A stretch of 62,365 bases of DNA, the filler included, from Aduncisulcus paluster (taxonomy: Eukaryota): NCBI GenBank assembly GCA_024181965.1. It is 8 parts of 8 records of this genome, joined end to end, with 100 filler letters (N's around TTAATTAATTAA, not from the genome) between each part and the next. Parts side by side here need not be neighbours in the genome. Positions count along the whole stretch, not along the records: positions 46,138 to 62,365 come from BQXS01011475.1; 7 more parts are not named here. The stretch is one strand, 5' to 3'. The notes below the pieces were generated by a model, which saw only the letters and a list, made by a program, of their open reading frames with translations, searched no databases and was not told where the DNA came from. Below, piece after piece: positions 11,149 to 62,365 of this stretch. The position numbers and the translations under genes were made by a program. How positions within the stretch are numbered: position 1 is the first letter of the stretch; every line of letters begins with the position of its first letter.

Positions 11149-11248
11149 NNNNNNNNNNNNNNNNNNNNNNNNNNNNNNNNNNNNNNNNNNNNTTAATTAA
11201 TTAANNNNNNNNNNNNNNNNNNNNNNNNNNNNNNNNNNNNNNNNNNNN
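11149..11248. other. Artificial contig linker
   Basis: N44-TTAATTAATTAA-N44. Confidence 0.97.
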
Positions 11249-13881: not shown

Positions 13882-13981
13882 NNNNNNNNNNNNNNNNNNN
13901 NNNNNNNNNNNNNNNNNNNNNNNNNTTAATTAATTAANNNNNNNNNNNNNNNNNNNNNNNNNNNNNNNNNNNNNNNNNNNN
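13882..13981. other. Artificial contig linker
   Basis: N44-TTAATTAATTAA-N44. Confidence 0.97.
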
Positions 13982-17940: not shown

Positions 17941-18469
17941 GAATTTAAGTTAATAATTGTTTCTAAATTAGTCTGAAAACCAAACCTTGTTCATTTTCAG
18001 CCTAATTTAGAAACAAATGTTACACTGTATTGATGGCATAAGATGAAGGCCAAAAACAAAGCCGATAAGGTCGTATACTCGATGGTTTTCCTCGGGCTGG
18101 GGGATGAAGAGGGCCGATTATCAATGATAATTTATCATTATGATATTATGTCATCAAAAACGCCAAAAATCTCGCAAATTAAACGCAAATTACTGAAACA
18201 AATTATCGTAAAATCCTTTGATCAAAAATTTAGCGAGAACCTGCTTCACTCTGTCACGGATTAGATAGATCTAGTCTAATTCACATCGTGTTGGCCTTTT
18301 AATAAAATATTCCAGAATCCTCTTATTGCTTTTTTTCGTTTATTTATTGTTATTGAATTCGTGATTGTTTCGATTCTATATCATAGTTAAAAAGTAGATT
18401 TCTGTTCTTGACCGACATTAGAGTTTGACAGAATCATTAGGTCATTCTTTTTTTATTAAATTGACATTA

Positions 18470-27214: not shown

Positions 27215-28016
27215 TTATTCAATTACAAATCAAATCAATTTTTTTAAGTTTTTGGTTTATTCTTTTTTCTTGATGATATTTTATTTTATTTTTTAATGCG
27301 TTTTTATTGATTTTGATTCATTTTTTCGCAGACTTATTTTGTTCTGACCTTTTTGTTTCTAGTTCCCTCGCTAGTTTTTAATCATTTTCAGCTTTTGGTA
27401 ACAACTATTATTTTAATATAATGATTATTGTCATAAATTATGACTCATAATGATAATATAAGGTTATATAATTCCAAGATCTACTATAAGTTATAGTCTA
27501 TAACAGTTAACTCATCAATAAATCAGATGTCGACTCTTCTTTTTTCGACTACTGGCCAGGCCATAAATTAGATGCTCATGCTCTTTCCACACCCTTTGGT
27601 TATGAGCCTTCTTCTTGTCATTTCGACAATGATATGGGGTTATTTCGATGAATTTCAACTATTCGCCTCGAAATATTTTGTTTTCATCTGAAATGGTCAT
27701 TTATATTTGTAAAAATAATGCTAAAATCGAAGAATATTTCACTTTCGTTTCATTCATTTCTAAAAATAGAAATTCTAAAAATAGAATTGTATTTTCAAAA
27801 ATCCATCTATAACGGGTAAATTGGTGTCTAAACTGCTGTAATGTTTGGTATTGTCTCTTTATTAGAATAGAACATCTCTTGTATAAAATAGATGGAGAAG
27901 ATTTCTGTTGTTCCGATGGAAATGATCGAAATAATTGACCATTCTTCTCAATAAATCCAACAATCAAGGAGAGAATCCCAAACTATCCTCATTTCTGAAG
28001 ACTCTCCAGTGGAGAG

Positions 28017-28536
28017 GTATTCTTGTTCTAAAGTAGTCTCCTCAGCTTCAGAAAGATCCCTTCGATCAGTGATTCAACATCATGTTGAACATGAATTAAG
28101 ATGCTTTTATTGTTGTGAATAGGGCCAAAGAATGGTCAAAAAAAAGAGATACTCATTCGAAAAGTCGTGAAGGCAGTGACCATCATCAGAATGTTTCAAT
28201 GGCAGAAGAGAGATTCGTTCAGCAGCCAATAATTTCTATTGGCAGAGAAAAAACAAGGGAGAAAAGNNNNNNNNNNNNNNNNNNNNGGTATTCTTGTTCT
28301 AAAGTAGTCTCCTCAGCTTCAGAAAGATCCCTTCGATCAGTGATTCAACATCATGTTGAACATGAATTAAGATGCTTTTATTGTTGTGAATAGGGCCAAA
28401 GAATGGTCAAAAAAAAGAGATACTCATTCGAAAAGTCGTGAAGGCAGTGACCATCATCAGAATGTTTCAATGGCAGAAGAGAGATTCGTTCAGCAGCCAA
28501 TAATTTCTATTGGCAGAGAAAAAACAAGGGAGAAAA
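28017..28536. repeat. Identical ~250-bp duplication flanking a 20-N gap (28267-28286); scaffolding artefact
   Basis: 28017-28266 is repeated at 28287-28536. Confidence 0.88.
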
Positions 28537-28553
28537 GCCACAATATCCTTGGA

Positions 28554-30315: not shown

Positions 30316-30415
30316 NNNNNNNNNNNNNNNNNNNNNNNNNNNNNNNNNNNNNNNNNNNNTTAATTAATTAANNNNNNNNNNNNNNNNNNNNNNNNNNNNN
30401 NNNNNNNNNNNNNNN
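30316..30415. other. Artificial contig linker
   Basis: N44-TTAATTAATTAA-N44. Confidence 0.97.
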
Positions 30416-32980: not shown

Positions 32981-33080
32981 NNNNNNNNNNNNNNNNNNNN
33001 NNNNNNNNNNNNNNNNNNNNNNNNTTAATTAATTAANNNNNNNNNNNNNNNNNNNNNNNNNNNNNNNNNNNNNNNNNNNN
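32981..33080. other. Artificial contig linker
   Basis: N44-TTAATTAATTAA-N44. Confidence 0.97.
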
Positions 33081-36894: not shown

Positions 36895-38649
36895 TTATTT
36901 CGGAGATTTCTCTCTTCTTTTCTTTTTATGAGAAGATGTGGATATGGCAAAGGCTTTGATCATTCCATCCGGCATAGAATAGCCACTTTGCTTTGTCAAT
37001 ATCTTGATGATCACAAAAACAAGGACCAAAATAGAAAGTGAGAAACAAACAATTGGCGCCATTGTGACATAACTCACCCATGCCACANNNNNNNNNNNNN
37101 NNNNNNNATGAGAAGATGTGGATATGGCAAAGGCTTTGATCATTCCATCCGGCATAGAATAGCCACTTTGCTTTGTCAATATCTTGATGATCACAAAAAC
37201 AAGGACCAAAATAGAAAGTGAGAAACAAACAATTGGCGCCATTGTGACATAACTCACCCATGCCACACAAAAGAAAGCCATTGGAGGTGCAACAATCTTC
37301 AAAACAGCCGATGAGGCATGCAAGAGTGGCGAGAGCAATATTCTCAGAACTAAAAATAGAATGGAAGAAATGAGAGGAAGAGAGAACGAAGCAATGTTTA
37401 ATATAACGCGGCTTCGCAATGATAATAACATCTCGAGGTCCTTAGAGGCGAAGAAGTGGAGGACAAAGCTGATCAGACCCATAGAAAGTCCAACTCCGAG
37501 TAACATCAGACACCCACTCACGTTGAGGTGAATTGATTCTTCTCTAGCCCGGATTGTATGCGAAAATATCGAAGACAGTCCCCTTCGATGCTTGGAAACA
37601 CTCTTTGTACTACTGGTTGTCATGGAGTCCTTTGTCTTTGATTTCGTTTTCTTGTGACGACTGAACAGACTCTCCTTCTTCTCCTTCACAGAAAGAGGAA
37701 TGATATTGTCGTTTGGGAACAAAAGAGTCAGAATAGAGAGGGAATGGGGGCATGCCATAATTGTGAGAAGACAACAGCATCCAATGCAAAATCCTGGTCG
37801 ATCGCTCAGAGAAATAAAGAAACGCACTAAAAATGGAATAATAAGAAACGATATGACAACGTGAACCTTTCCAATTTTCTCGAGCTCCTTATCATGGGGA
37901 GTTCGCACTTTTATATTACTAATCGATCGATTACTCATTGAATTCCGGAATATTTCATTTCGGAAATATAATAACAATAGTACAATATTGCCAATCACTA
38001 AAATCATAGAAATTCCCGTCTCAATAACAGCTACAACAACGCTTTGCCCATTCTGCTCAGGATTTGGAAATAAGAATTCAGAATTATTAATAATAGCCTC
38101 TTTCATGGAATAATAGGTGTGATAAAAAGCTGATAATCTTCTAATAAGAAGATACAAGAAAACAGCCAGAAATGGACCTAAAATCCATGCCAAAAAATAA
38201 TTAGCAAAGTGAGTGAGAGATAAAAACTGTCTAGCGATTTTTATGTTCTTTCCAAAGTGTTTCTTGACTTTTTTATGCAATAGACGCTTAACTTGAGCTG
38301 AAATTGAACCAGTATTTTCAATGACACTATAATGCCAAAACCAGTGAGCTCTAAGATCCTCTAAAGAACCTTTAATTGAACAATTGCGTATTGGACATGA
38401 ATATTCAGTGGTTATTTGAGGAGTTATTAAGTTAGCACCCCTTTCAGAAACAGGACAACCACAAGCAGGACATTCAGCCTTTCTCTCATCAATATATGTC
38501 AAAATGCATTGTTTACAAAAACATTGACCACAATCTGGACACGCTTTTGGCTTCTCTGGAGGGATGGCACTGCAGATCCGACAACTCTCGGGTCTCTCAC
38601 CACTCTCCATTAATTGATGGAAGAAATCTTCTTCAAAGGATCCGTCCAT
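36895..38649 (-). CDS. RING-finger multi-pass membrane protein (putative E3 ligase)
   Basis: CRIC...CPDCGQCFCKQC...CPAC, a second finger CPIRNC...HWFWH, then about eight hydrophobic helices. The 160-bp duplication around the 37088-37107 gap is artefactual. Confidence 0.75.
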   Translation of the reverse strand: MDGSFEEDFFHQLMESGERPESCRICSAIPPEKPKACPDCGQCFCKQCILTYIDERKAECPACGCPVSERGANLITPQITTEYSCPIRNCSIKGSLEDLRAHWFWHYSVIENTGSISAQVKRLLHKKVKKHFGKNIKIARQFLSLTHFANYFLAWILGPFLAVFLYLLIRRLSAFYHTYYSMKEAIINNSEFLFPNPEQNGQSVVVAVIETGISMILVIGNIVLLLLYFRNEIFRNSMSNRSISNIKVRTPHDKELEKIGKVHVVISFLIIPFLVRFFISLSDRPGFCIGCCCLLTIMACPHSLSILTLLFPNDNIIPLSVKEKKESLFSRHKKTKSKTKDSMTTSSTKSVSKHRRGLSSIFSHTIRAREESIHLNVSGCLMLLGVGLSMGLISFVLHFFASKDLEMLLSLRSRVILNIASFSLPLISSILFLVLRILLSPLLHASSAVLKIVAPPMAFFCVAWVSYVTMAPIVCFSLSILVLVFVIIKILTKQSGYSMPDGMIKAFAISTSSHXXXXXXXVAWVSYVTMAPIVCFSLSILVLVFVIIKILTKQSGYSMPDGMIKAFAISTSSHKKKRREKSPK

Positions 38650-46037: not shown

Positions 46038-46137
46038 NNNNNNNNNNNNNNNNNNNNNNNNNNNNNNNNNNNNNNNNNNNNTTAATTAATTAANNNNNNN
46101 NNNNNNNNNNNNNNNNNNNNNNNNNNNNNNNNNNNNN
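46038..46137. other. Artificial contig linker
   Basis: N44-TTAATTAATTAA-N44. Confidence 0.97.
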
Positions 46138-46381
46138 GTGGATTTATGTCCAATATTTGTCTTCAACAGTGAGATATTATACTAGGATTCTTCTGATTTT
46201 TTATTCGCAAGAAATATCAATAATAAACACCTTTCCATCTTCCTCATGTGTCATGTTCTTCTTTTTTCAAGATGTTTTTCCCCCCCTTTATTATTTTGTG
46301 TGTGCAGATTCCTCACCTCCACAAATTGGTTTTTTCAGCACCAACAAAATTCCTTGTTTTCGTGTCAATTGGAACAATACC

Positions 46382-46912
46382 ATGGCAATCTTTTTTTCTG
46401 ATTTTAGTTTTGATGGCTTCTGGAAACCGTCATCGAAGGATTCTGGCGATATTTCCCTTTCTGATGAGCTTATAAAACGAACTGAAGCTCAGCTTGGTTT
46501 TAGACTTCCCGCATCGTATATCGAGTTTATGAAACTTCACAATGGTGGTATTCCAATCCGTGATTGCTTTTATTTGGATGATATCGACCTCTCATTTTTC
46601 ACTGAGACTGCTCGACAAATCTCTCGATTCTATCTTGAAGCTCCTTTTACTGTAGGTACCTTTTTCGGTATTAACGATTCCAAAAGTAATTCTCTTGTTC
46701 CAAAAAACAAGTATTTGATTCATGAAAGCAGATATCCCGCAACTGGAGTTTATATAAGTGAATCGTTCATGTTAGATTATGAAGGTTGTCAAATTGGAGA
46801 GGAGCCTCGTGTTGTTTATGTTTATTATCTACTATATTTCTGCCACAAGATTGCTGTTGCTAAAACTTTTGGAGAATTTGTTCGAAAGCTCAAGCCTCCC
46901 AAGCTTCCTTGA
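46382..46912 (+). CDS. SMI1/KNR4 (SUKH) family protein of bacterial type
   Basis: FDGFW...SDELIKRTEAQLGFRLPASYIEFMKLHNGGIP...CF...YPATGVYI...MLDYEGCQIGEEPRVVYV...IAVAKTFGEFVRKL is the SUKH pattern. 176 aa from the ATG at 46382. Confidence 0.85.
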   Translation: MAIFFSDFSFDGFWKPSSKDSGDISLSDELIKRTEAQLGFRLPASYIEFMKLHNGGIPIRDCFYLDDIDLSFFTETARQISRFYLEAPFTVGTFFGINDSKSNSLVPKNKYLIHESRYPATGVYISESFMLDYEGCQIGEEPRVVYVYYLLYFCHKIAVAKTFGEFVRKLKPPKLP

Positions 46913-47109
46913 GTTTATTATTATATTTATTTTATTTTTGTAAACGTATTGATGTAATATTTTATTAATGTCATTTTTGACGATTTTTGTTCTTTTTGAT
47001 TCCTCTTGGCCTATCCCGCCGAAGAAAACCACTTGAGGAACGGATGAAAAGAGATTTTAAGATTTTGGTTGTTTTTTCGAGATAGCAATAATAACCCACA
47101 AATTATATC

Positions 47110-47718
47110 ATGAATATAATTGCAACGTTACCTTTTCTTTATATATGTGATCTAATTGCATCATTAAGCGCTATGTTTGGACTATGGACTCTTGTTGCCC
47201 ATAAAGAGCTAGAAACATATTATTATATTTTTGGTATTAAGATGTTTCTTATTGGAAAGCCAGGATTCGTGTTTAAACTTATTCTATTATTCGCTCTTTG
47301 TGTTGCTTGTCTGGTCTTAACCATGAAAGGTGTTGAGATCCGAAAAGATGAATTGGAAAGTTTAGGTTGCTGTGGATCGATCGAAGCAACTTCTACATGT
47401 AATTTTACTGCATCTGGGGCACTTTTTTTATTATATTATGAATGGATACGCTGGCAAGCTGGTGATCTTGATGAGGATGTGGATACTTATTCTGAGACCT
47501 GGGAATACAAATTGCTTTTGGTGGGTTCTATAGCATGCTATGTATTTTCACTCTTGGGATTTCTCTTTAATGGTTGCAGTTCCAAGAAAAAGGAGGGAAA
47601 GGATCCTGCGATACAACCCATGACATCATCGCAAGCAGTACCGCCAGCATTTGGCAGTCTTCCTCAAGGTGACACCCAATATTATCCAAGTCCTGTTGGC
47701 TTTGGGTTACAAGTATGA
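47110..47718 (+). CDS. Small four-TM membrane protein with Pro/Gln-rich tail
   Basis: Four hydrophobic segments; tail PAIQPMTSSQAVPPAFG...YYPSP. Confidence 0.7.
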   Translation: MNIIATLPFLYICDLIASLSAMFGLWTLVAHKELETYYYIFGIKMFLIGKPGFVFKLILLFALCVACLVLTMKGVEIRKDELESLGCCGSIEATSTCNFTASGALFLLYYEWIRWQAGDLDEDVDTYSETWEYKLLLVGSIACYVFSLLGFLFNGCSSKKKEGKDPAIQPMTSSQAVPPAFGSLPQGDTQYYPSPVGFGLQV

Positions 47719-48272
47719 GACTCAGACTCAGACAGTCGGACTGAGCAGTCTCACAAGACTGTCTGTGACTGTCAATGTATTCAGCATTGGATTGAGCTGA
47801 AATAACTTCATCAACATTCATTAAAATCTAAAATGTTACCAATAAACAAGCCAATTATCAGAATATCCATTTCTTTTATTGATATTATGTAAAAATCATC
47901 TTTTTGGCCTCTCTCTTATCACTTACTCTCTTGTAACACTTTATCACGACCATTACTCCCTATTTATATATCTTTTTAACCGTTAACTTCCCATTATTCC
48001 TTACCATTGTATCATCTCCCTGAAAATGTTCTCTATCCATATCAAATGATCATTTATGTGTTCATCCATATTTTATTTTCGTAATATCTTCCATATTCTA
48101 CCCAGCTTTCAAATGCCCTTTTGTCCAGATAAGTCAGAAATCCCCACTTACTCGGATCAAACACTTTTGTTTCCCTATTCATGTTCTGAGATGACATTGT
48201 TCGCTCACAATTTTGTTTTTGTTTCCCTTTTTTTGTTACCATCGTTAATATAAAATATCTTAAATTCACAAT

Positions 48273-48725
<453 letters not shown>

Positions 48726-50608
48726 GCATTATTCTTTCTGAAGATGAAGATTCATACTACAAATTTCTTTCTCGACAATTCAAGCATTTATAACAATAGT
48801 TATGTGTTGTATGATCTATGATATTCAACTTATATATATATATATATATTTATATCATATCACATAATATGTATCATAAACATATAACGTAAACATATAC
48901 CATCCAACGATAGAAACATATGTTCTGACCCATGACAGACTAACTCATACAATTCTAACTCATACCATTCTCAGCTCTCACCCTCCACGATATAGTACGT
49001 TGTACACCATTCTTATCTCTGTCTATCTCACTGAGAGGATCTCTGGCATAGATACAATGAAACACATTCAAGGCACTTTCGAATATCACACATTCAAGGC
49101 ACTTTCGAATATCACAAACAATAAAAGCCTTTCTCGGTTTTTTTTCCTTATTCCAGGGTCTCTACGGTCATTTGAGAAACATGGAGCAGACAAACTTGGT
49201 TTTGGTAACAAATCTATCAATTCTATATTCTATTTGGCTCATCATTTTTGTCTACTATATTATATACCATTATTCTTTCCGTTGTATATTCATTTATTCC
49301 ATTCTAATCTGTTAATTGATGGTTTGTCCCTTTAGAAGCTTATTGGGGTTGTTTAATGGTATACATTTATTTCATTTAACATATATACTACATTTATTAC
49401 CTTTATTATACCCAGAGCCTATTCGTATTCTTTGAATTTCTATCCAAAAAGGAACAGAAGTCATAGACACACCAATGAGTTCATAGAGAACAATTAAAAT
49501 GATGGAACCAGAGTTTATTCATAAAGTTTTTAATTTAACCTATGGATGCTGTCCAATTCATCAAGATTCTCCCAATATTCAGGCTCCATCCGGATTGTGT
49601 TCAAGTATATCAAAGCCATGGCGGAACGAAAGAAGAAGGTGATAAAACGTGCACGACCGAGGATATGAAGAATCTTTTGGTAGAGATTATATTCCCATTC
49701 CATGTGATGACATGATAATCCAAAGGCTGTAAGATCCTTCATTCTCGATGGTTTAGTGCAAAGATGATTCGGTTAGGAAGGAATCTCAGTGGAATAGTCA
49801 GAGTTCACGTGCATAAGAATACATTTGCATGAGTTTTCCTCCCCTTATTTTAACAAATCCCAAGGAAAGTGAAATTATTGAACGATAATCTCTTTTGATC
49901 TCAGTTGTTTCTTATTTTTTTGGCCCAATTATTTTTGTCTCCCATATATTCTCTCTCCTTTCAAAATGACTTGATTTAAGGATTAAACTTGACTTCTTTC
50001 ACATAACGGTAGCCGTAACAATACCCTCAAATAAGCAAGCAAAGATATTCAAGAAGACTGATCACCAATGCCATTGTTACTGTCACCCATCGAGGTCAAG
50101 TTCACCACCATCATGAACCAGGTTCGCACTGACAATCTCATTGACTACCTCATTCTCCACACTTGCTGGTCCCATATTCGTCCCCAACGTCAATGTTCTG
50201 GGTTGTTGAAGGCCGATGTTGAAATTCTTGTTGACACCTCATGCACGACTGCTGTAATCAAGACCACAGAAGAGGAGATCGAAGAAGCCCAATGCTAGCT
50301 CCATCCACACCGGTTTGCAAGCCGAACTTCTTGTTGAATGCTGGTATTAATGCTGGATAGAGTATGGATGTCATCTCATCTCAATGTTCTCACTATCAAG
50401 AAACTTCACAGTCCGATGAAGCTCTCCTCATTGACACTATCCCTGAAGATGTACAAACGCTACTTTGATTGATTTTTCCATGTGTGAGGTCAATAGTAAG
50501 TATCTTCTTCGCAAACAAGAGCGATATTGATGTAGAACTTTTATTGAGGATTTTTTTTTCGTAGCATAAAGATCTATTACATTATACCAGACAACAATGA
50601 TCAGTGGT

Positions 50609-53213
50609 TCATTTTTTACAATTTCTTGAGAACATTGTATACGTAAAATCCCAACCCCCATTATTCTTGCACCACACCATGTTGGCATCATATTTGGGAG
50701 ATATGCGAGGAACAAGAGATGGAACAGTGGAGAGCATGGAAATGAGTCTGGACCATAATATGATTCCTGATTTATGTTCTTCCTTCTTTATAACTCTATA
50801 CCACCCGTCAAGAAGATCTTTAACATTATCATAGATTTCAACAGCATGTGATGGATCACAACATAAGTTGGAGAAGAACCATAAAACCCTTTCATGATTA
50901 TCCCCAACAATCTTATCCCCAACAAACTCTCTCTTAACAACATCAAGAACAGGGTGGAAGAGGGGCCAGGTTTCAGAACAGATGGATTTGTAGGGTGTTT
51001 CATCATCACTTGAGAGGGTGATTTGTGATAGAATAACCATCCATCTTCCATAACACTCACTATCATTGTATATCCTCAACCAATCTCTGATATATGGTTT
51101 AATGAGGGTGAAAATAGAGGATCGAGTGGAAGAAGAGGGAGAATTAGAGATGTTTCTGAGAGTTATTAATAAATTTGAATCAACATAACCTCCCAACTTC
51201 TTCTTACTATCACTTCCTCTCTCAAGAATACGTTGAAAAGTGGGGGAGATCTTTGGAAGGAAGGAATCTAAAATATCAACTTTGACAGTATAACTCACAC
51301 AAATACAACAATACTCTTCATCAACATCTCCTTCCAACACTTCCTCACATCTTGATAGATGACCAATGAAAGTGTCAATGAGATCATTCAGATCAGGAGT
51401 AGGGAGATAGATATCATTTCCAGAAATAACATGTTCAACAAACCATCTTAAACACTGAGCACAAAGAACAATCTCTCTCTTGTGCTCTTCAATCTTACTC
51501 TTTGATTGGAATGCAAGGAAGACAGAAAGAATCGCATCTCGATGTTCATGATAGAGTTTGGAAGTGGATTCTGAGTCAGGGGATTTCTTGATAGATTCAA
51601 CTAATCCTAACCATTTCTTTAAAGATATATAACAATTACCAAGATATCTTGAATAATCTTCACCCCAACCCCCATTATTCTTGCACCACACCATGTCAGC
51701 ATCATATTTGGGGGATATGTGAGGAACAAGAGATGGAACAGTGGAGAGCATGGAAATGAAATGGGACCAGTATTTGGTTCCCCACTTACCATCATCTTTC
51801 CCTTCTTCACTCTTCTTCTTTATCATCTCAAACCAACCATCAAGAAGACCATCTTTAATACAATAATACACTTCAATGGCTTGGAAAGGAATACAACTCA
51901 AGTTAGTAAAGAACCACAAACAACGAATTACAGCATCATCATCAAATGTAATACCTTTGGAAGCAGTATCCTTAATCACATCCAAGACAGGATGGAACAA
52001 AAACCAGAGTTGTGAGGAACGATCTTTATGAGGGGTGATGTTATCTTTATCATTTGTGATATTTTTCAAGATGTTTGTCCAATGCAGAAAGAACTTCTTG
52101 TCAGGATACTTCTTCATCCAAGGTAAGATGTGAGGGAGAAGAAGGGATAAAAGAGAGTTCTTGGTGGGATCATCTTTGGCAAATGCAATGTGTCGACATG
52201 TTTGAAGGATATCCTCAATAAAAGAATCTTCAAATTTCTTGGATAGGCCGAGAATAAACATCTTGGAGATGAGGGAAGAGATTTGGGGGAAAATAGAAAT
52301 ACAAAGGGATAGAACATGAAATGTAGAGTTGTCAATTATCCTAAACAATAACATTGTGATAGAATTCACCACAGCTTCACTAGTTCTACCTTCTTCTTCT
52401 TCTTCTTCTTTCACTCTCAGAATATTTTCAACTTTGATCATTGAAGGCAAGAAAGTGTCAATAATGTTCTTGATGGAAGAACTATCCAGAATAACCTCAA
52501 TATAATCCTCATCTTCCTTCAAAGTCCCATCTCCTTTTGGAACTTTATGCTTCACAAACAAGGACAAACATTCGAAACAAAGCTCAAAGAGATCTATATT
52601 GGATGTGATAGCAGAGGGTGAAGAAGAACTGAATTCATCAAAGATAGCCTTGAGACGAGGATATGATTCTTTGTAAAGGGATGTGATGGCAGGCTTAGAC
52701 TCAGTTCTTTTGATTGACATAATCAAGGACTGTAATTCTGATTCTGTCTTCCTCACATTATCTGTTTTGAGTTCTTCTCTCTTCCTCTTCTCTTCTTCTC
52801 TCTTTAATCTCAGTTTCAAGGCCTCGACTTCTTTGGCTTGACGATCAACTTCTTTCCTCAATTGTTCTTCTTTTGAAGCACTTGAACTTGCACTTGATGT
52901 TTTGGATTCAGGACGACTCAAACTCAAACCAACATCCCAATTTGGTTTTAACACAACACTTTGAATTGAATCATCTTCCTCAACAATGCATCCAGAATCA
53001 CCTTTATGCTTGGCAAGCTGAGCCTTCACAATATCGTCAATGGATGGACATTCCCACCCTTCTCCAATCTTTGGAAGAAGAGGTTTGATGGATTGAACTT
53101 TCTTGCAGGCTTCATGAACACTCATACGTTCATCAATGTCAATCTTTGTCAATCCTTCGAATATTTCATTCAGACAGGAATAAACAGGCACAAACTTACC
53201 GCCTTTAATGGTT
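50609..53213 (-). CDS. Kinase-associated helical (ARM/HEAT-like) repeat protein, version A (two repeat units), 5' truncated at gap
   Basis: Kinase C-lobe end (LTKIDIDERMSVHEAC), coiled coil, then repeats ending LSTVPSLVPxISPKYDxxMxWCKNNGG. Confidence 0.8.
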
Positions 53214-53233
53214 NNNNNNNNNNNNNNNNNNNN

Positions 53234-53656
<423 letters not shown>

Positions 53657-55621
53657 GCATTATTCTTTCTGAAGATGAAGATTCATACTACAAATTTCTT
53701 ACTCGACAATTCAAGCATTTATAACAATAGTTATGTGTTGTATGATCTATGATATTCAACTTATATATATATATATATATTTATATCATATCACATAATA
53801 TGTATCATAAACATATAACGTAAACATATACCATCCAACGATAGAAACATATGTTCTGACCCATGACAGACTAACTCATACAATTCTAACTCATACCATT
53901 CTCAGCTCTCACCCTCCACGATATAGTACGTTGTACACCATTCTTATCTCTGTCTATCTCTCTCTCTCACTGAGAGGATACAATGAAACACATTCAAGGC
54001 ACTTTCGAATATCACACATTCAAGGCACTTTCGAATATCACAAACAATAAAAGCCTTTCTCGGTTTTTTTTCCTTATTCCAGGGTCTCTACGGTCATTTG
54101 AGAAACATGGACAGACAAACTTGGTTTTGGTAACAATCTATCAATTCTATATTCTATTTGGCTCATCATTTTTGTCTACTATATTATATACCATTATTCT
54201 TTCCGTTGTATATTCATTTATTCCATTCTAATCTGTTAATTGATGGTTTGTCCCTTTAGAAGCTTATTGGGGTTGTTTAATGGTATACATTTATTTCATT
54301 TAACATATATACTACATTTATTACCTTTATTATACCCAGAGCCTATTCGTATTCTTTGAATTTCTATCCAAAAAGGAACAGAAGTCATAGACACACCAAT
54401 GAGTTCATAGAGTACAATTCAAATGATGGAACCAGAGTTTATTCATAAAGTTTATAATTTAACTTATGGATGCTGTCCAATTCATCAAGATTCTCCCAAT
54501 ATTCAGGCTCCATCTGGATTGTGTTCAAGTATATCAAAGCCACGGTGGAACGAAAGAAGAAGGCGATAAAACGAGCACGACCGAGGATATGAAGAATCTT
54601 TTGGTAGAGATTATATTCCCATTCCATGTGATGACATGATAATCCAAAGGCTGTAAGATCCTTCATTCTCAATGGTTTAGTGCAAAGATGATTCGGTTAG
54701 GAAGGAATCTCAGTGGAATAGTCAGAGTTCACGTGCATAAGAATACATTTGCATGAGTTTTCCTCCCCTTATTTTAACAAAGCCCGAGGAAAGTGAAATT
54801 ATTGAATGATTATCTCTTTTGATCTCAGTTGTTTCTTATTTTTTTGACCCAGTTATTTTTGTCTCCCATATATTATCTCTCTCTCTTTTCAAAATAACTT
54901 GATTTAAGGATTAAACTTGACTTCTTTCACATAACGGTAGCCGTAACAATACCCTCAAATAAGCAAGCAAAGATGTATACTGATCTCAAATCACTATCTG
55001 CTGGCAATGACATTGTCTTTGGTATCATCTTCATAGATGGTGGTCATGCTTGTCAATCTCACTAAGCTCATTATCAAGCTTGGAGGTGAACCCAACTCAA
55101 GAAGATGTTCAAGAAGACTGATCACCAATGCCATACAATCTCATTGACTACCTCATTCTCCACACTTGCTGGTCCCCATATTCGTCCCCAACGTCAATGT
55201 CCTGGGTTGTTGAAGGCCGATGTTGAAATTCTTGTTGACACCTCATACACGACTGCTGTAATCAAGACCACAGAAGAGGAGATCGAAGAAGCCCAATGCT
55301 AGCTCCATCCACACCGGTTTGCAAGCCGAACTTCTTGTTGAATGCTGGTATTAATGCTGGATAGAGTATGGATGTCATCTCATCTCAATGTTCTCACTAT
55401 CAAGAAACTTCACAGTCCGATGAAGCTCTCCTCATTGACACTATCCCTGAAGATGTACAAACGCTACTTTGATTGATTTTTCCATGTGTGAGGTCAATAG
55501 TAAGTATCTTCTTCGCAAACAAGAGCGATATTGATGTAGAACTTTTATTGAGGATTTTTTTTTCGTAGCATAAAGATCTAATAGATCTATTGCATTGTAA
55601 CAGACAACAACGATCAGTGGT

Positions 55622-58600
55622 TCATTTTTTACAATTTCTTGAGAACATTGTATACGTAAAATTCCAACCCCCATTATTCTTGCACCACACCATGTTGTTA
55701 TCATATTTGGGAGATATGCGAGGAACAAGAGATGGAACAGTGGAGAGCATGGAAATGAGTCTGGACCAGAATATGATTCCAAAATTATGTTCTTTCTTCT
55801 TTATAACTGTAAACCACCCATCAAGCAGATCCTTAACATTATCATAGACTTCAAGAGCATGTGATGAATCACAACATAAGTTGGAGAAGAACCATAAAAC
55901 CCTTTCATGATTATCCCCAACAATCTTATCACCAATAAACTCTCTCTTAACAACATCAAGAACAGGGTGGAAGAGTGGCCAAGCTTCAGAACAGAGGGAT
56001 TTGTTGGAGAGAGTTTCATCATCTCTTGAGACGGTGATATTTGCAAGAATACCCATCCATCCTCCATAAGACTTACTATCATTGTATATCCTCAACCAAT
56101 CTCTGATATATGGTTTGATTAGGGCGAGAATAGAGGAATGAGTTGAAGGAGAGGGAAAAGGAGAGATGTTTTGAAAAGTTTGGTTTAAATCCTGAGCAAC
56201 TTTACCTCCCAACTTCTCCTTACTTCCTCTCTCAAGAATACGTTGGAAAGTGGGAGAGATCTTTGGAAGGAAGGAATCTCTTTTATCTTTAACTTTGAAA
56301 GTGTAACTCACACAAATACTACAATACTCTCCATCAACATCTCCTTCCAACACTTCCTCACATCTTGATAGATGACCAATGAAAGTGTCAATGAGATCAT
56401 TCAGATCAGGAGTAGGGAGATAGATATTATTTTCAGAAATAACATGTGTACCAAACCATCTTAAACACTGAGCACAAAGAACAATCTCTCTCTTGTGCTT
56501 TTCAATCTTACTCTTTGATTGGAATGCAAGGAAGATAGAAAGAATCGCATCTCGATGTTCACGGTAGAGTTTGGAAGTGGATTCTGAGTCAGGGTATTTC
56601 AAGATAGTTGCAACTAATTCTGACCATTTCTTCAGAGAAGGATAGCAGTTACCAAGATATCTTGAATAATCTCCAGCAAGAACTCCATTATTCTTGCACC
56701 ATTCCATGTCAGCATCATATTTGGGAGATATGTAAGGAACAAGAGATGGAACAGTGGAGAGCATGGAAATGAGATGGCACCAGCATTTAATTCCCCTCTC
56801 ATGTTCTTTCCTTTTTATAACTGTAAACCACCCATCAAGAAGATCTTTCACATTATCATAGATTTCAACAGTATGTGATGGATCACAACATAGCTTGGAG
56901 AAGAATGATAAAACTCTTTCATGATCATCCTCAACAATCGTATCACCAATAAACTCTCTCTTGACAACATTAAGAATAGGGTGGAAGAGAGACCAGGCTT
57001 CAGAACAGAGGGATTTGTTGGGGGATTTGTTATCACTTAAGAGGGCGATAAATGATAGAATATACATCCATCTTCCATAACACTTACTATCGTTGTATAT
57101 CCTCAACCAATCTCTGATATATGGTTTGATTAGGGTGAGAATAGAGGATCGAGTGGAAGAAGAGGGAGAGATGGAGATGTTGAAGAGAGTTTTTAATAAA
57201 TCTAGAGCAACATCTCCTCCCAACTTCTCCTTACTTCCTCTCTCAAGAATACGTTTGAGAGCGGGAGAGATCTTTGGAAGGAAGGAATCTCTTTCATCTT
57301 CAACTTTGAAAGTATAACTCACACAAATACTACAATACTCTTCATCAACATCTCCTTCCAACACTTCCTCACATCTTGATAGATGACCAATGAAAGTGTC
57401 AATGAGATCATTCAGATCAGGAGTAGGGAGATAGATATCATTTCCAGAAATAACATGTACAACAAACCATCCTAAACACTGAGCACAAAGAACAATCTCT
57501 CTCTTGTGCTTTTCAACCTCACTCTTTGATTGGAATGCAAGAAAGACAGAAAGAATCGCATCTCGATGTTCACGGTAGAGTTTGGATTTTGATTTTGAAT
57601 CAGGGGATTTCATGATTGTTTCAACTAATTTTGACCATTTCTTCAGAGAAGGATAGCAATTACCAAGATATCTTGAATAATCTCCATCAAAAACTCCATT
57701 ATTCTTGCACCATACCATGTTGTTATCATATTTGGGAGATATGTAAGGAACAAGAGATGGAACAATGGAGAGCATGGAAATGAAATGGGACCAGTATTTG
57801 GATCCCCAATTACCATCATCTTTCCCTTCTTCACTCTTCTTCTTTATCATCTCAAACCAACCATCAAGAAGACCATCTTTAATACAATAATACACTTCAA
57901 TGGCTTGGAAAGGAATACAACTCAAGTTAGCGAAGAACCACAAACAACGAATTACAGCATCATCATCAAATGTAATACCTTTGGAAGAAGTGTCCTTAAT
58001 CACATCCAAGACAGGATGGAACACAAACCAGAGTTGTGAGGAACGATCTTTATGAGGGTCGGTGTTATCTTTATCACTTGTGATGTTCTTCAAGATGTTT
58101 GTCCACAAGAAAAAGAACTTCTTGTCAGGATACTTCTTCATCCAAGGTAAGATGTGAGGGAGAAGAAGGGATAAAAGAGAGTTCTTGGTGGGATCATCTG
58201 TGGCAAATGCAATATTTCTGCATATTTGAAGGATATCCTCAATAAAAGGATCTTCAAATTTCTTGGATAGGGCAAGAGATATTATTTTGGAGAGGAGGGA
58301 AGAAATTTGTAGGAAAATAGTTGGAGAAAGCGATTGTTCATGAAATGTAGAAACAACAATTATCCTGAACAATAACATTGATATAGAATTCACTCCAACC
58401 TCATCGGTTCCACCTTCTTCTTCCTCTCCTTCTTTCACTCTCAGAATATTTTCAACTCGGATCATTGAAGGCAAGAAAGTGTCAATAATGTTCTTGATGG
58501 AAGAACTATCCAGAATAACCTCAATATCATCCTCATCTTCCTTCAAAGTCCCATCTCCTTTTGTAACTTTATGCTTCACGAACAAGGACAAACATTCGAA

Positions 58601-60273
58601 ACAAAGCTCAAAGAGATCTATATTGGATGTGATAGCAGATGGTGAAGAAGAAGTGAATTCATCAAAGATAGCCTTGAGACGAGGATATGATTCTTTGTAA
58701 AGGGATGTGATGGCAGGCTGAGACTCAGTTATTTTGATTGACATAATCAAGGACTTTAATTCTGATTCTGTCTTCCTCACATTATCTGACTTGAGTTCTT
58801 CTCTCTTCCTCTTCTCTTCTTCTCTCTTTAATCTCAGTTTCAAGGCCTCGACTTCTTTGGCTTGACGATCAACTTCTTTCCTCAATTGTTCTTCTTTTGA
58901 AGCACTTGAACTTGCACTTGATGTTTTGGATTCAGGACGACTCAAACTCAAACCAACATCCCAATTTGGTTTTAACACAACACTTTGAATTGAATCATCT
59001 TCCTCAACAATGCATCCAGAATCACCTTTATGCTTGGCAAGCTGAGCCTTCACAATATCGTCAATGGATGGACATTCCCACCCTTCTCCAATCTTTGGAA
59101 GAAGAGGTTTGATGGATTGAACTTTCTTGCAGGCTTCATGAACACTCATACGTTCATCAATGTCAATCTTTGTCAATCCTTCGAATATTTCATTCAGACA
59201 GGAATAAACAGGCACAAACTTACCGCCTTTAATGGTTTTCAAGGTTTTAAAAAGACGGGATTTGGAGAGTTTTGGACCCATTCCCTTTGAAATGAGATCA
59301 CTAAGCTCTTTAACATATTCTATCGGGGAATCAATCCATTGTAACACAGGATGCTGAAGGAAAGGATCTGCCCTTGAACATGGCAAGGATAGTCACCGAG
59401 TGAGTAAGCATCGCTCTCTTGACTTTGATCTCCTTCAAGAGCTTCACAGGAGTTGTACACAAGTGTGCCACAGATGGAGCGTTTGTTTGGATTTGTTTTA
59501 TCTTCTTTGTTCAGACTTGGATATATCAACAAAGCTCTTGGAAGTCGTGGAAGAGGAGATGGAGTCTTGGATCTGAGCAAGACCGAGATCAGAGAGAACA
59601 ATGGCGCAATCGATCGTCTTGGGTTCAACACGAACAAGGAAGTTGTCAGGCTTAATGTCTCGGTGAATAAGGTCGGGCTTAGCTTTGAACACTTCGGAAA
59701 GGCACTCGATCATTCCAACACACAATGCACTCACTCTCAGAGGATCAAGAGTCATGGGGTCAATGCGAGGAGCTTGAATCAGAGTCAGAGTCAGACTTGA
59801 ATCGGAGTCAGAGTCAGAGCTTGAGTCTTCAGATTCAGCTAGGAGCTTGAACATCCACGTCCATACTTGCCTCCAAACACCAACTCCTGGAAAAGTCTTT
59901 CACACTGCCTCCATACAAAACTCCATGCAAAACCCATACACCCTTTGTATCCTCGTCAAGAAGGTCAAGATGTAGATGGGGCGAGGGATACGGTTGAAAC
60001 ATTTGGGATTCATGAACAGCTTCACTTGGATCTTGAATTCCTTGCGACACGCTTTGATCACGTTCTTATCACCAACTTGTACCAGTTTCTTCAGAACACA
60101 TGGTTGAGAAACACCGTCAATACTCACAATGTAAACGGCCCCGAACCCACCTTTGCCACAGAAACACCTGCACCTTATAACTGACGCAAAAGTGAGATCT
60201 TGTCGTCACGTTTACGTTTGTGCCCAGATTTCGAGGATTTTGAAGCTTTAGAAGTAGATTTGTCTTTACCCAT
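55622..60273 (-). CDS. Ser/Thr kinase + coiled coil + three helical repeat units, version B; kinase part frameshifted
   Basis: ATG at 60273 (MGKDKSTS). Kinase motifs lie in successive frames: GKGGFGAVY, CVLKK, FCMEFC, IHRDIKPDNFL, SDLGL, CGTLVYNSCEAL, SDAYSLG. A 1254-aa open frame follows, with a 1011-bp repeat period. Confidence 0.8.
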
Positions 60274-61467
60274 TGTAGAAAACGGAATAAACAACCAACC
60301 AACCAATGAAAGATAGCAATGGTCTTAAAGTGTACAAATTACAATCGAATAAATGATAAAGATGCGATTGACCAGACTAGGAATGCAATAGAAGGATGGT
60401 GAGGAATAACAAAGAGATAAATAAAAAAGAACGAAAGGGAAACAAGTAATATTTTCATGAATTGGGGAAACATATTGATACCGAGTCAAACACAAATTAT
60501 TCCCTCGTAATTGTAACGAAAAGGGCTGGTCTTTCAGCTTCAAATTCTGTCGTTAATGATCTTGCGAGGTTCATGTGCTCGTCGTTTGAAAGCACAATAT
60601 TTGGAACAGTATGATATAAAATTTTGGATAGTATTGGAATTATCCCTTGTTGACATCAAAGAATCGAAAAGTCGCCATTTGGATGGCATCATGACATATC
60701 CTTGGAGATACAATGGGATAAAATAATTCTTTTTATCTTCCACGAGTTCATTTTACCCCCATCTACTTTGAAGCTATTGCAAACATGGCATCTTTGAGCG
60801 ATTCGATTTATTTCAATAGTTAATAACTAAAATCGTTATTCATAAGTTTTTTACAATCTTTAAACAAACAAATTCGGCCATGATAGACTTGATAGGACCA
60901 TTATTGATTCATTTCTCCTTTTTGGTGAGACTACGATGCGTTCCGAGCCGTTCTATCAACATTTGTCCAATATTTATTACCAATTATATTGACCGGGCAG
61001 TAATTTGTAATGTTATAATGGATGCAATGATAAAGTTTATTTCTCTTCTTTGTAATATTTGCCAAAGACTATCTAAGTAAGGCCCTTACTTCTGATCTAT
61101 CTGATCTATCTGTGATGTTGGCAACGTTGCATTATTATTATCCATTCAAGCCCTGAATGTCTGTTGCAACAGACTCTGTAGGCTGACTGTGAATAATAAG
61201 AATAGCCCGTACATCCTTACATTGGTCATACTCAGGGCCTATCATAGCAAGGAAGCAGGAACAAGGAAAGAACCAAGAAGCACCGAGAAGCACTGTCATA
61301 TCAAGAGATAGAGTATAGTAAAAGAGGTGGGATGGATGGTTTATATATGACATATGATGTTGACCTGGATACAAATGCTCATATGTGTATATACATATAT
61401 ATGTGTGTGTGACAATAGATGACAAGGAGCACCAGGAGAACATGCAATAATCATGCAGTAACCAGGC

Positions 61468-61508
61468 CATAATTAGAGCATAATTAGAGCATAATTAGAG
61501 CATAATTA
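61468..61508. repeat. 11-bp tandem repeat CATAATTAGAG, about 3.7 copies, overlapping a stop codon
   Basis: Directly visible. Confidence 0.85.
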
Positions 61509-62365
61509 CATCACAACACCAGCCATCCTCAACCTCTTCCTGCTACAAGCATAGCAGCAACAACAGATGAGCATGAGAGAAAATGTGATTCCGGCGATTA
61601 TCCCGACGATAATGACACTCTCAAGCGTGGCAATGGCAGAGTCAATGTTGTCGTTGTCACCATCGAAGTCACTTCTGAACACAAGCTTGCATTGGGGAAC
61701 AGAAGGAGCTTCGAGGACATGTTTGAGACGGCAACATCGGAATAAACATCACTGTAACCCGTGATCGAAAAGTAATACCATCCACTGTCGAGGTCAGCAA
61801 TGTCGGTCAGAGAGACGAGATCACTGTACATAATGGTGGCTGGAGTGCTGTAATATGTCAGATGACCATATTCATCCTCGAAGAGGGTTGTGATATCCCC
61901 TCCTTTCCCAGTGTTGACAAAGTTTTCAGAAAAGATGGACAAATATATGGACATATCGTAGGAATGGAGATATCCATTAGTACTCAAGAAAAGCTCAAAT
62001 GAAAGGTATTGATCAAGTTTCTCAGGCATTCCAGTCATTTCCAGTTCAGAACCCACGGATACATCAAAGCGGAAAGAATCTTCTTCAGAGATCTCACTTT
62101 CGGTCATGTGAGAAGCATCATTATAATAGCAAAAATAGAAAGTGACAGTAAGGGAGCCATCTTCGATTATAAGGGGCAGAAATTCCTCATAACTAATAGT
62201 CGGTGTGCTTGGAGTTCCATTAAAGTAGATGGTCTTCCACTCCATCTCGCTAGCAGACCGCCATGAACATTCGCCAACATCGTTCGAAATACAATAAGTA
62301 TAATATCCTGAATTCGCTGTTTGGACAGAAAACAGCAAACTAGTCGTGCTATAAGTAATGACCGA
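61506..62365 (-). CDS. Type I membrane protein, 5' truncated, with a frameshift near 61720
   Basis: Open from the window end. An alternate frame gives ...SAIATLESVIIVGIIAGITFSLMLICCCCYACSRKRLRMAGVVM* (TM + Cys/basic tail), stop at 61508-61506. Confidence 0.7.

What the first reader, a model, noticed from the sequence alone, without database searches (positions are those of the whole stretch)
50609..60273. Kinase-coiled coil-helical repeat gene with two versions differing in repeat number and sequence: candidate intracellular non-self sensor
Seen: versions A (50609-53213) and B (55622-59237) are essentially identical over the kinase C-lobe and coiled coil, and so is the neighbouring E2. They diverge strongly in the helical region, e.g. 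IIDNSTFHVLSLCISIFPQISSLISKMFILGL vs IIVVSTFHEQSLSPTIFLQISSLLSKIISLAL. B has one extra 337-aa (1011-bp) unit. Units vary at recurring patches (WGEDY/FDGDY/LAGDY; WFVEH/WFVVH/WFGTH; GYVDSNL/GDVALDL/GKVAQDL). Established: an N-terminal effector plus polymorphic, copy-number-variable C-terminal repeats is the layout of fungal NLR/HET allorecognition genes. No NACHT or NB-ARC domain is evident here. Inference: an undescribed polymorphic sensor-kinase family.
Basis: partly seen in the sequence, partly recalled or inferred. Interest (0 to 1): 0.78.

Follow-up and report, generated by a model that had tools for sequence, protein, structure and literature searches.

The report
Kinase–armadillo super-repeat gene, assembled twice
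The two "versions" are most likely two haplotypes of one gene that the short-read scaffolder placed side by side, and the gene belongs to a large, undescribed family found only in the flagellate Aduncisulcus paluster: a protein kinase joined to 337-residue armadillo-repeat modules.

Summary
The sequence features are real. A and B share an identical kinase C-lobe, diverge in the helical part and differ by one ~1014-bp unit.

A and B sit on either side of a 20-N scaffold gap. The last 4.9 kb of the left contig matches the first 6.0 kb of the right contig. All 3 other 20-N gaps in the window show the same unmerged overlap. Read-contig depth of the shared parts equals that of the single-copy flanks. 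I read this as one heterozygous locus, not a tandem pair.

The organism is Aduncisulcus paluster, from an Illumina-only draft with N50 4.6 kb. The gene belongs to a family of at least 145 predicted proteins, seen only in this species. Members have a very divergent Ser/Thr kinase, a linker helix and 1–6 tandem units. AlphaFold2 folds the unit confidently as an armadillo solenoid.

dS rises together with dN in the helical part (ω 0.41–0.75). Most 30-residue windows match another paralogue better than the other version, which points to ectopic exchange or chimeric assembly.

B's kinase part has 9 frame breaks in the assembly. No read contig carries the window's version at one of them.

No NACHT/NB-ARC domain was found. 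A non-self-sensor role remains speculative.

The parts
46138..62365 (.). The one scaffold (16,228 bp) that holds the finding. The rest of the window is made of other contigs joined by artificial linkers.
   Evidence: N44-TTAATTAATTAA-N44 linkers at 46038-46137 and seven other places. P0021, which is version A, is listed with a longest contig of 16228.
53214..53233 (.). 20-N scaffold gap between the contig that ends in version A and the contig that starts in E2 copy 2.
   Evidence: The other three 20-N gaps (28267, 35690, 37088) are each flanked by 100%-identical direct duplicates of 251, 167 and 160 bp.
48305..53213 (.). Haplotype or overlap segment 1: E2 copy 1, spacer and version A.
   Evidence: It aligns end to end with 53234-59237.
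53234..59237 (.). Haplotype or overlap segment 2: E2 copy 2 (5' end missing at the contig start), spacer and version B as far as the kinase C-lobe.
   Evidence: Read-contig depths of the shared parts are 2065-2471, against 1928-2412 in the flanks.
50609..53213 (-). Version A ORF, cut by the gap: kinase C-lobe end, linker helix, head unit (51782-52795), one canonical unit (50771-51781) and a ~50-residue cap.
55622..59386 (-). Version B long ORF (1254 aa): kinase C-lobe end, linker, head unit (57806-58816), unit 2 (56795-57805), unit 3 (55781-56794) and cap (55622-55780).
   Evidence: AF2 models: single unit pLDDT 95.1; residues 101-1254 pLDDT 86.6.
58796..58900 (-).
   Evidence: It is helix H63-97 of the model of B residues 101-1254, with block pLDDT about 63-75.
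59369..60273 (-). Kinase N-lobe to activation segment of version B, starting at the ATG at 60273. It is broken by 9 frame changes in the assembly. HRDIKPDN and SDLGL are present.
   Evidence: Read contigs carry 1-nt insertions at 59968/9, 59912, 59876 and 59840.
48273..48725 (+). E2 ubiquitin-conjugating enzyme gene, copy 1. It is out of frame at 48289 and at a (CT)4 versus (CT)5 run at 48589.
   Evidence: All read contigs at 48289 carry one extra base.
53234..53656 (+). E2 gene, copy 2. It is in frame but lacks its first ~31 bp because the contig starts there.
   Evidence: Pfam UQ_con E = 6.4e-50.

Best explanation
Versions A and B are two haplotypes of a single locus in Aduncisulcus paluster. 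The sample could also hold two co-existing genotypes, which would look the same. The scaffolder of an Illumina-only draft could not merge the two overlapping contigs and wrote them one after the other across a 20-N gap, so the tandem pair is an assembly artefact.

The gene is one member of a large family specific to A. paluster. Its parts are a very divergent but catalytically equipped Ser/Thr kinase, a disordered linker with one long charged helix, and a continuous armadillo-type alpha-solenoid built from 1-6 tandem super-units of about 337 residues, closed by a 50-residue cap.

Inferred mechanism: the solenoid is a protein-binding platform whose exposed helix faces, loops and a beta-hairpin vary between units. 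It brings the kinase to different partners or sites. The kinase-less members would act as scaffolds or competitors.

The family appears to diversify by changes in unit number (unequal exchange between ~89%-identical neighbouring units) and by patchwise exchange between paralogues. That would explain why the two haplotypes differ by 8% and by one unit in the solenoid while being identical just outside it.

Shown here: the overlap geometry, the depth parity, the family size, the fold, and the mosaic similarity. Inferred: binding function, exchange mechanism, and the reality of each haplotype's exact sequence.
For: One locus:
- 4 of 4 20-N gaps in the window are flanked by a duplicate that runs exactly from the gap edges.
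- Depths of read contigs lying in A/B-shared near-identical parts are 2110, 2065 and 2471. Depths in the single-copy flanks are 2131, 1928, 2412 and 2303. The shared parts are therefore not doubled.
- At the A/B variant site 49212 the depth splits 1204.5 of 2279.5.
- The flanks are themselves heterozygous: 6 differences in 485 nt and 7 in 323 nt between the read contig and the scaffold.
- A residues 1-165 are 30/30 identical to B in every window, while the best paralogue scores 19-30 and only once reaches 30.

Family:
- 79 hits, of which 78 are named A. paluster and 1 is the window's own protein.
- A unit profile finds 99 cluster representatives among 1.84 billion proteins. Of 10 looked up, 9 are A. 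paluster and 1 is a spurious plant repeat.
- 146 of 146 held sequences carry units, with 206 units in all. Capped proteins hold 0-5 HMM-detected units.
- Kinase motifs GxGGFGxV, CVLKK, HRDIKPxN and SD[LH]GL are seen in paralogues. 27 of 79 carry at least one of the five motifs searched, one of which is the non-catalytic SIKPLLP.

Fold:
- Single unit: pLDDT 95.1, pTM 0.91.
- VIA-align: Z 18.2 to p120 catenin (rmsd 4.8, 266 aligned), 17.6 to plakophilin 1, 17.5 to Kap60.
- B residues 101-1254: pLDDT 86.6, all-helical from about residue 101 of the model.

Mosaic:
- 33 of 45 helical windows of A and 47 of 67 of B match another paralogue better than the other version. In A's N-terminal part the figure is 0 of 11.
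- dS is 0 in the C-lobe and 0.16-0.19 in the units.
Against: - The depths are per-contig k-mer means of Logan contigs. The tool warns they are not copy numbers, and I could not lay raw reads.
- The family region is so repeated (summed depth 16,000-125,000) that either contig could be a chimera of paralogues. In that case the 'allelic' differences would not be real.
- The A-type junction contig has depth 2564.9, not about 1200, which does not fit a simple half-depth allele. Shared k-mers could inflate it.
- E2 copy 1 carries a 2-bp slip relative to copy 2, which is odd for an allele of a conserved gene unless it is an error.
- No binding partner, localisation or kinase activity was tested.
- Pfam finds no Arm model on the units.
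Confidence: 0.6

Rival explanations
1. True tandem segmental duplication. The genome really holds E2-A-E2-B, with the duplication junction or missing sequence inside the 20-N gap, and A and B are young paralogues.
For: A 20-N gap is only a placeholder, so sequence could be missing there. The family clearly duplicates often. The A-type junction contig has about full depth, 2564.9.
Against: The similarity starts at the first base after the gap and ends at the last base before it, as at the 3 other 20-N gaps. Shared parts have the same depth as the flanks, not twice it, and the variant site at 49212 splits about 50:50. Both E2 copies would be incomplete or broken.
Confidence: 0.1
2. Assembly chimera. 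There is one locus, but the solenoid part of contig A or contig B, or both, was threaded through reads of other paralogues. The 8% divergence and the unit difference would then be artefacts, not alleles.
For: The draft is Illumina-only: 150-bp pairs, ~500-bp inserts, MaSuRCA, N50 4.6 kb (whole text read). Most helical windows match other paralogues better than the other version. Summed depth in the region is 16,000-125,000. The scaffold has 1-nt indels that no read contig supports, at 48289, 59968/9 and 61667. Annotated paralogue P0022 contains two internally duplicated blocks, which look like translated unmerged overlaps.
Against: Both contigs run from the locus-specific E2 side to the locus-specific C-lobe with open reading frames of 867 and 1254 codons. 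Read contigs agree with the scaffold at nearly all positions within A and B at 97% or more (table 3). An A-type junction contig occurs in both runs.
Confidence: 0.25
3. Polymorphic intracellular non-self sensor. The solenoid units recognise foreign or allelic ligands, are kept diverse by balancing or diversifying selection, and trigger the kinase, analogous to fungal NLR/HET genes.
For: The family is large and lineage-specific, with highly similar internal repeats (89% nt identity between B units 2 and 3) and variable unit number. Variable positions are enriched outside helices (31 of 81 against 53 of 256, p = 0.002) and follow an i, i+3/4 spacing on helices. ω is 1.12, 1.26 and 3.68 in the most variable quarter of columns.
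Against: No STAND NTPase was found. Overall ω is 0.41-0.75 and dS rises as well. The ω>1 class was chosen for its variability, and only 1 of 3 pairs is nominally significant. Surface positions vary in any protein. There are no population data, no phenotype and no known pathogen of this organism in my searches.
Confidence: 0.1
4. Decaying pseudogene. B has lost its kinase to frameshifts, and the locus is a dead member of a family with rapid turnover.
For: The assembled kinase part has 9 frame changes and in-frame stops. B is not among the annotated proteins found, where the best hit is 77% identical. In Giardia, Nek subfamily GL4 has 29 pseudogenes (PMC3218828, passages read).
Against: The 3.7-kb ORF downstream is intact. 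The frame changes cancel out in groups. No read contig passes 59968-59969 without an inserted base (4882.6+10977.3+4122.2 = 19982.1, the whole depth), and insertions in read contigs coincide with 4 of the 5 +1 shifts. The same kind of unsupported 1-nt deletion sits in the conserved E2 gene at 48289.
Confidence: 0.15

Closest known systems
Giardia Nek kinase / Protein 21.1 expansion (Nek kinase + ankyrin repeats + coiled coil)
   Same: It is in the same lineage (Fornicata). It is a massive species-specific expansion of a kinase fused to an alpha-helical repeat domain plus a coiled region. It includes many kinase-less or inactive relatives and shows rapid gain, loss and polymorphism. In Giardia, 198 of 278 kinases are Neks, and they are polymorphic between strains (PMC3218828, passages read).
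   Different: The repeats here are armadillo-type super-units of 337 residues, not ankyrin. The kinase could not be assigned to Nek: no Nek appears among the best 60 PDB matches listed. The catalytic motifs appear to be kept rather than mostly lost.
Fused/STK36, ULK4 and MAP3K-epsilon/Cdc7-type kinases (N-terminal kinase + C-terminal ARM/HEAT repeats); named from recall, plus search listings
   Same: The order of parts is the same: kinase first, then a long ARM/HEAT solenoid.
   Different: Those are single-copy, conserved genes. Here there are at least 145 species-specific members, tandem 337-residue higher-order units and an orphan kinase domain (best PDB E = 6e-7, eIF2-alpha kinase 1, CDPK, RIPK1).
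Fungal NLR/HET allorecognition genes (N-terminal effector, NACHT/NB-ARC, highly similar WD40/ANK/TPR repeats); recalled, no paper read
   Same: An N-terminal enzymatic or effector domain, C-terminal repeats with high internal identity, and repeat-number variation.
   Different: No NTPase domain was found. The repeat unit is a 337-residue block of ARM repeats. Incompatibility or immune function is untested.
Armadillo-repeat proteins (p120 catenin, plakophilin, importin-alpha)
   Same: The fold of the unit matches: Z 17.5-18.2 over 260-296 residues.
   Different: Sequence identity is 11-12%. No Pfam Arm hit was found. Foldseek gives no match at E of 0.001 or below.

Membership tests
Fungal NLR/HET (STAND) allorecognition genes | Central NACHT or NB-ARC NTPase domain | tested here: not met
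   Pfam scan of the B ORF and the kinase ORF and of six paralogues: no NACHT or NB-ARC at E of 0.1 or 0.01.
Fungal NLR/HET (STAND) allorecognition genes | C-terminal repeats with high internal identity and variable number | tested here: met
   B units 2 and 3 are 89% identical in DNA. Unit number is 0-5 by HMM among capped proteins. The repeat type is different (ARM super-unit).
Fungal NLR/HET (STAND) allorecognition genes | Alleles determine non-self recognition | not testable with these tools
   This needs genetics or population data.
Armadillo-repeat fold (structural superfamily) | Right-handed superhelix of three-helix repeats similar to solved ARM proteins | tested here: met
   AF2 unit pLDDT 95.1. 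VIA-align Z 18.2, 17.6 and 17.5 to p120 catenin, plakophilin 1 and Kap60, above the Z of about 13-14 that the tool gives as common for helical repeats. Handedness was not inspected.
Pfam Arm (sequence family) | Significant match to the Arm profile | tested here: not met
   No Arm family is listed for B (E up to 0.1) or for six paralogues (E up to 0.01).
Eukaryotic protein kinase (ePK) | Pkinase profile match plus glycine loop, beta-3 lysine, HRD and DFG-type aspartate | tested here: met
   Paralogues: Pkinase E = 2e-14 to 1e-13 and motifs present. In B itself the 118-aa ORF matches Pkinase at 24.6 bits, below the 31.7 cut-off, and the domain is frame-broken as assembled.
Nek kinases (Giardia-type Nek-ankyrin) | Kinase domain groups with Nek | tested here: inconclusive
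   No Nek appears among the best 60 of 126 PDB matches or the best 60 of 151. All matches are weak (31 bits or less). No kinome classifier was available.
Nek kinases (Giardia-type Nek-ankyrin) | Ankyrin repeats | tested here: not met
   No Ank Pfam hit was found. The fold matches are ARM proteins.
Fused/STK36/ULK4 kinase-ARM proteins | ULK-family kinase domain | tested here: inconclusive
   No ULK or STK36 appears among the listed PDB matches. The ESM Atlas gives only generic Pkinase clusters.

The most novel reading that the evidence does not exclude
A. paluster carries a repertoire of over a hundred intracellular receptor-kinases. Their recognition surface is a stack of 337-residue armadillo super-units that is reshuffled by unit gain and loss and by patchwise exchange between paralogues. 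Single loci are therefore hyper-polymorphic (8% and one whole unit between haplotypes, against 0-2% next door). This would be an NTPase-free, kinase-based counterpart of NLR-type non-self or prey/pathogen recognition in a free-living metamonad.
Probability: 0.1. Interest if true: 0.8.

Novelty: new variant of a known kind. Interest (0 to 1): 0.4.

Why it matters
For the scan, this shows how an unmerged haplotype overlap in a short-read scaffold can pass for a polymorphic tandem gene pair. It also shows that frame breaks in this draft cannot be read as pseudogenes.

For biology, about 1% of the predicted proteome of a little-studied free-living relative of Giardia (at least 145 of 15,316 proteins) is one orphan family. 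That family couples a kinase to modular armadillo super-repeats, a parallel to Giardia's Nek-ankyrin expansion but with a different repeat. If the between-haplotype mosaic is real, the family would be a good system for studying repeat shuffling and ectopic exchange as generators of binding diversity.

Tried and rejected
- The whole genome of the window is not held, so family loci, their arrangement and codon-level tests beyond the five units in the window were not possible.
- Earlier findings of this scan: none for this genome.
- The look-up of sequencing runs listed no holder on record as RNA. X2 is only guessed to be RNA, so I make no firm claim on expression. Contigs of X2 do cover the locus-specific 3' end of A (49651-50705, depth 35.6) and the family region.
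- Homodimer test of the linker helix (2 copies of B residues 150-232): no answer, score 0.27 against a mark of 0.32. It counts neither for nor against binding.
- Foldseek against the PDB gave no match at E of 0.001 or below. The best were designed ARM proteins at 3.7e-3.
- Pfam on the units gave only sub-threshold, presumably spurious matches (TSR, GSKIP, DUF2719).
- The ESM Atlas search on the kinase part gave generic kinase clusters only.
- blastp of B against itself returned only the diagonal. The units were defined by offset counting instead.
- Literature: searches listed no paper describing this family. Supplements were not consulted.
Full report
**What the window is.** The window has 18 runs of N. 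Fourteen of them form seven N44-TTAATTAATTAA-N44 blocks. These are six-frame stop linkers, so the window is a chain of separate contigs. The piece that holds the finding is 46138-62365 (16,228 bp).

A protein search with B residues 230-1254 gave 79 hits at E of 0.001 or below. Of these, 78 are named Aduncisulcus paluster (ADUPG1_ tags) and one is the window's own protein.

The genome announcement (PMC9933649, whole text read) describes an Illumina-only draft: 150-bp pairs, ~500-bp fragments, MaSuRCA, 25,863 contigs, N50 4.6 kb, BUSCO 40.4%, 15,316 predicted proteins.

**Check of the observation.** ORF A (50609-53213, minus strand, cut by N) and ORF B (55622-59386, minus strand, 1254 aa) are there, and all quoted strings are in their translations.
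- A and B show 0 differences in 115 codons of kinase C-lobe and linker, and 5 differences in 65 codons of the helix region.
- Per 200 alignment columns, identity is 100% at both outer ends of the overlap and 79-97% in the helical part.
- One 1014-nt gap (586+428) corresponds to the extra unit in B.
- Protein self-offsets of 337 and 338 residues mark B 528-864 and 865-1202 as near-identical tandem units.
- The ATG at 60273 opens with MGKDKS..., as in paralogues P0004 and P0022.

**Why A and B are probably one locus.**
- The 20-N gap 53214-53233 lies exactly between them. Similarity begins at the first base after the gap (53234 matching 48305) and ends at the last base before it (53213 matching 59237).
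- The three other 20-N gaps of the window (28267, 35690, 37088) are each flanked by 100%-identical duplicates of 251, 167 and 160 bp that also run from the gap edges. So 4 of 4 such gaps are unmerged contig overlaps.
- Contig 2 starts inside the E2 gene, 31 bp after the start codon seen in copy 1.
- Two runs were laid as Logan contigs: X1 (probably DNA) and X2 (guessed RNA). Single records in the single-copy flanks have depths 2131, 1928, 2412 and 2303. Records in parts that A and B share almost identically have 2110, 2065 and 2471. That is the same depth, not double.
- At 49212, a site where the two segments differ, the depth splits 1204.5 of 2279.5.
- The flanks themselves differ from the scaffold at 6 of 485 and 7 of 323 positions, which suggests 1-2% heterozygosity.
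- Caveat: these depths are per-contig k-mer means and the tool warns against reading them as copy number. The tool also notes that the best DNA holder may be the sample the window was assembled from, so X1 and X2 are not independent of the scaffold.

**State of the kinase part.** Against P0004, the B sequence from 60273 to 59369 changes frame nine times, near 60190, 59965, 59940, 59912, 59874, 59845, 59490, 59395 and 59369. Five of these are +1 shifts and four are -1 shifts, and they cancel in groups.
- Read contigs carry one extra base at 59968/9, 59912, 59876 and 59840, which coincide with four of the five +1 shifts.
- At 59968 the three insertion-bearing sets add up to the whole depth (4882.6+10977.3+4122.2 = 19982.1). 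No read contig supports the scaffold's version there.
- At 59912, 59876 and 59840 only part of the DNA depth carries the insertion: 37150.8 of 89062.3, 15000 of 42148.2 and 2750 of 5872.2. These contigs may come from paralogues.
- The same kind of unsupported 1-nt deletion lies in the conserved E2 gene at 48289. All of X1's 2412.8 and all of X2's 294.1 depth carry an extra base there, and it restores the reading [17 protein letters not shown].
- I therefore treat the frame breaks as at least partly consensus errors and not as proof of a pseudogene.

**The family.**
- A two-sequence unit HMM finds units in 78 of the 79 paralogues. The architecture is regular: a diverged head unit (matching HMM positions from about 57), then 0-4 canonical units, then a ~50-residue piece matching the start of a unit, which acts as a cap.
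- 91 full canonical units occur in 58 sequences, with A counted twice (as A and as P0021). 90 were aligned.
- A profile of 27 units (alignment A1) searched against 1.84 billion representatives found 99 proteins at E of 0.001 or below, 92 at 1e-10 or below and 74 at 1e-30 or below.
- Of 10 looked up, 9 are A. paluster. One is a plant protein that matches only profile positions 5-43 in nine short stretches, which I regard as spurious.
- After I dropped the 7 plant-cluster proteins, all 146 remaining sequences carry units, 206 units in all with at least 200 positions matched.
- Among the 106 sequences that end in a cap, the unit number is 0:17, 1:35, 2:35, 3:13, 4:5 and 5:1. This HMM undercounts head units.
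- An HRD-type motif occurs in 28 of 146. In the first 79, the motifs GxGGFGxV, CVLKK, HRDIKP[DE]N and SD[LH]GL recur, so the catalytic residues look intact.
- Many records are partial, so the share without a kinase is uncertain.
- Some gene models carry other N-terminal parts: LRR in P0061 and a reverse transcriptase in P0060, and names such as 'RTM2-like' and 'TFIID subunit 6 like'. These may be merged gene models.

**Fold.**
- The unit (B 528-864 with alignment A1) folds at pLDDT 95.1 and pTM 0.91 as about 20 helices plus one beta-hairpin.
- Foldseek finds nothing at E of 0.001 or below. Its best rows are designed armadillo proteins, importin-alpha and beta-catenin.
- VIA-align against 48,161 chains gives Z 18.2 to p120 catenin (rmsd 4.8, 266 aligned), 17.6 to plakophilin 1 (rmsd 7.7, 296 aligned) and 17.5 to Kap60 (rmsd 3.9, 260 aligned). 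These are above the level the tool calls common for helical repeats.
- B residues 101-1254 (alignment A2, 30 sequences) fold at pLDDT 86.6 and pTM 0.65. The model has a disordered stretch (model residues 23-62), one 35-residue helix (63-97, pLDDT about 63-75), then uninterrupted helical repeats to the end.
- The three units thus form one long solenoid, although the relative placement of the units is only moderately confident.

**Kinase class.** The kinase domain is very divergent. The best PDB matches are at 29-31 bits: CDPK, STK33, PAK4 and IRAK4, and eIF2-alpha kinase 1, CDPK1 and RIPK1 with a 12-sequence profile. No Nek or ULK appears among the 60 rows listed each time. The ESM Atlas search gave generic kinase clusters.

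**Pattern of divergence.** Nei-Gojobori estimates for A against B:

| Region compared | dS | dN | ω |
|---|---|---|---|
| Head unit | 0.159 | 0.065 | 0.41 |
| A unit vs B unit 2 | 0.192 | 0.105 | 0.55 |
| A unit vs B unit 3 | 0.128 | 0.096 | 0.75 |
| B unit 2 vs B unit 3 | 0.153 | 0.113 | 0.74 |

- Synonymous divergence jumps from 0 to about 0.16 at the border of the solenoid. The excess is therefore not simply amino-acid diversification on a young allelic background.
- I split the columns by entropy in the 87 units from other proteins. The conserved half has ω 0.19-0.35. The most variable quarter has ω 1.26, 1.12 and 3.68. Fisher p values are 0.71, 0.85 and 0.017, uncorrected, and the class was chosen for its variability.
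- Variable columns are enriched outside helices (31 of 81 against 53 of 256, p = 0.002). On helices they follow an i, i+3/4 spacing, for example 241, 245, 248, 252. This fits exposed faces, as in most proteins.
- In 30-residue windows, 33 of 45 helical windows of A match some other paralogue better than B (5 equal, 7 where B is better), with 11 different best paralogues. For B the figure is 47 of 67 (8 equal, 12 where A is better). In A's N-terminal part it is 0 of 11.
- For example, A 631-660 is 14/30 identical to B but 28/30 to P0007.
- The two versions are therefore patchworks of segments that circulate in the family. Ectopic exchange and chimeric assembly both predict this, and I cannot separate them with the tools at hand.

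**Most likely working.** These points are inferred.
- The solenoid serves as a binding platform, and its variable surface gives each paralogue its own partners.
- The linker helix spaces, and possibly pairs, the molecules.
- The kinase phosphorylates what the solenoid holds. Kinase-less members scaffold or compete.

The nearest biological parallel is the Nek-ankyrin-coiled-coil expansion of Giardia: 198 of 278 kinases, polymorphic between strains, with several localised to cytoskeletal structures (PMC3218828, passages read). The repeat type here is different and the kinase class is unresolved. The NLR/HET analogy fails on the defining NTPase domain and rests only on the repeat behaviour.

**Novelty.** The fold is known, kinase-plus-solenoid layouts are known, and lineage-specific kinase expansions in Fornicata are known. 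What appears new is a 337-residue armadillo super-unit used as a tandem module in at least 145 proteins of one species, undetected by Pfam. The literature searches listed no paper describing it.

The headline of the finding, two polymorphic versions side by side, is best explained by the assembly.

Noticed in passing
window 4340-4439, 8411-8510, 11149-11248, 13882-13981, 30316-30415, 32981-33080, 46038-46137: There are seven N44-TTAATTAATTAA-N44 blocks. The window is a chain of separate contigs joined by a six-frame stop linker, so neighbourhood across these blocks means nothing.
   Followed up: yes
window 28016-28537, 35523-35876, 36928-37267: Each 20-N gap is flanked by an exact duplicate of 251, 167 or 160 bp. 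These are unmerged contig overlaps and could create false duplications in gene models.
   Followed up: yes
window 48289, 47906, 60386, 60541, 61667: Single-base indel disagreements between the scaffold and every read contig that covers the site. At 48289 this breaks the start of the E2 gene. The draft has consensus indel errors.
   Followed up: partly
window 46157-46912 (+): A 251-aa ORF with a SUKH-1 (SMI1/KNR4) domain (E = 1.4e-12) lies upstream of the E2 gene on the same scaffold.
   Followed up: no
window 4470-8408 (+), 8513-11122 (-), 18425-27214 (+): Very long ORFs with leucine-rich repeats; the 2929-aa ORF also has a teneurin-like EGF domain. They lie on other contigs and share 86-89% identical DNA segments (4965-5689 with 7089-7822). 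This looks like another expanded repeat-protein family.
   Followed up: no
protein P0022 (annotated paralogue): It contains two blocks that are each present twice in a row, one of about 50 residues in the kinase insert and one of about 100 residues around the linker helix. They look like translated unmerged overlaps, so annotated family members may carry assembly artefacts.
   Followed up: no
window 47089-48092: Read contigs differ from the scaffold at 13 substitutions in 808 nt of non-coding flank. This suggests 1-2% heterozygosity, or two genotypes in the culture.
   Followed up: partly
window 51589-52762: A contig of run X2 (guessed RNA) joins 51589 to 52762, skipping 1172 nt without GT-AG ends. 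It is probably another paralogue with one unit fewer, not an intron.
   Followed up: no
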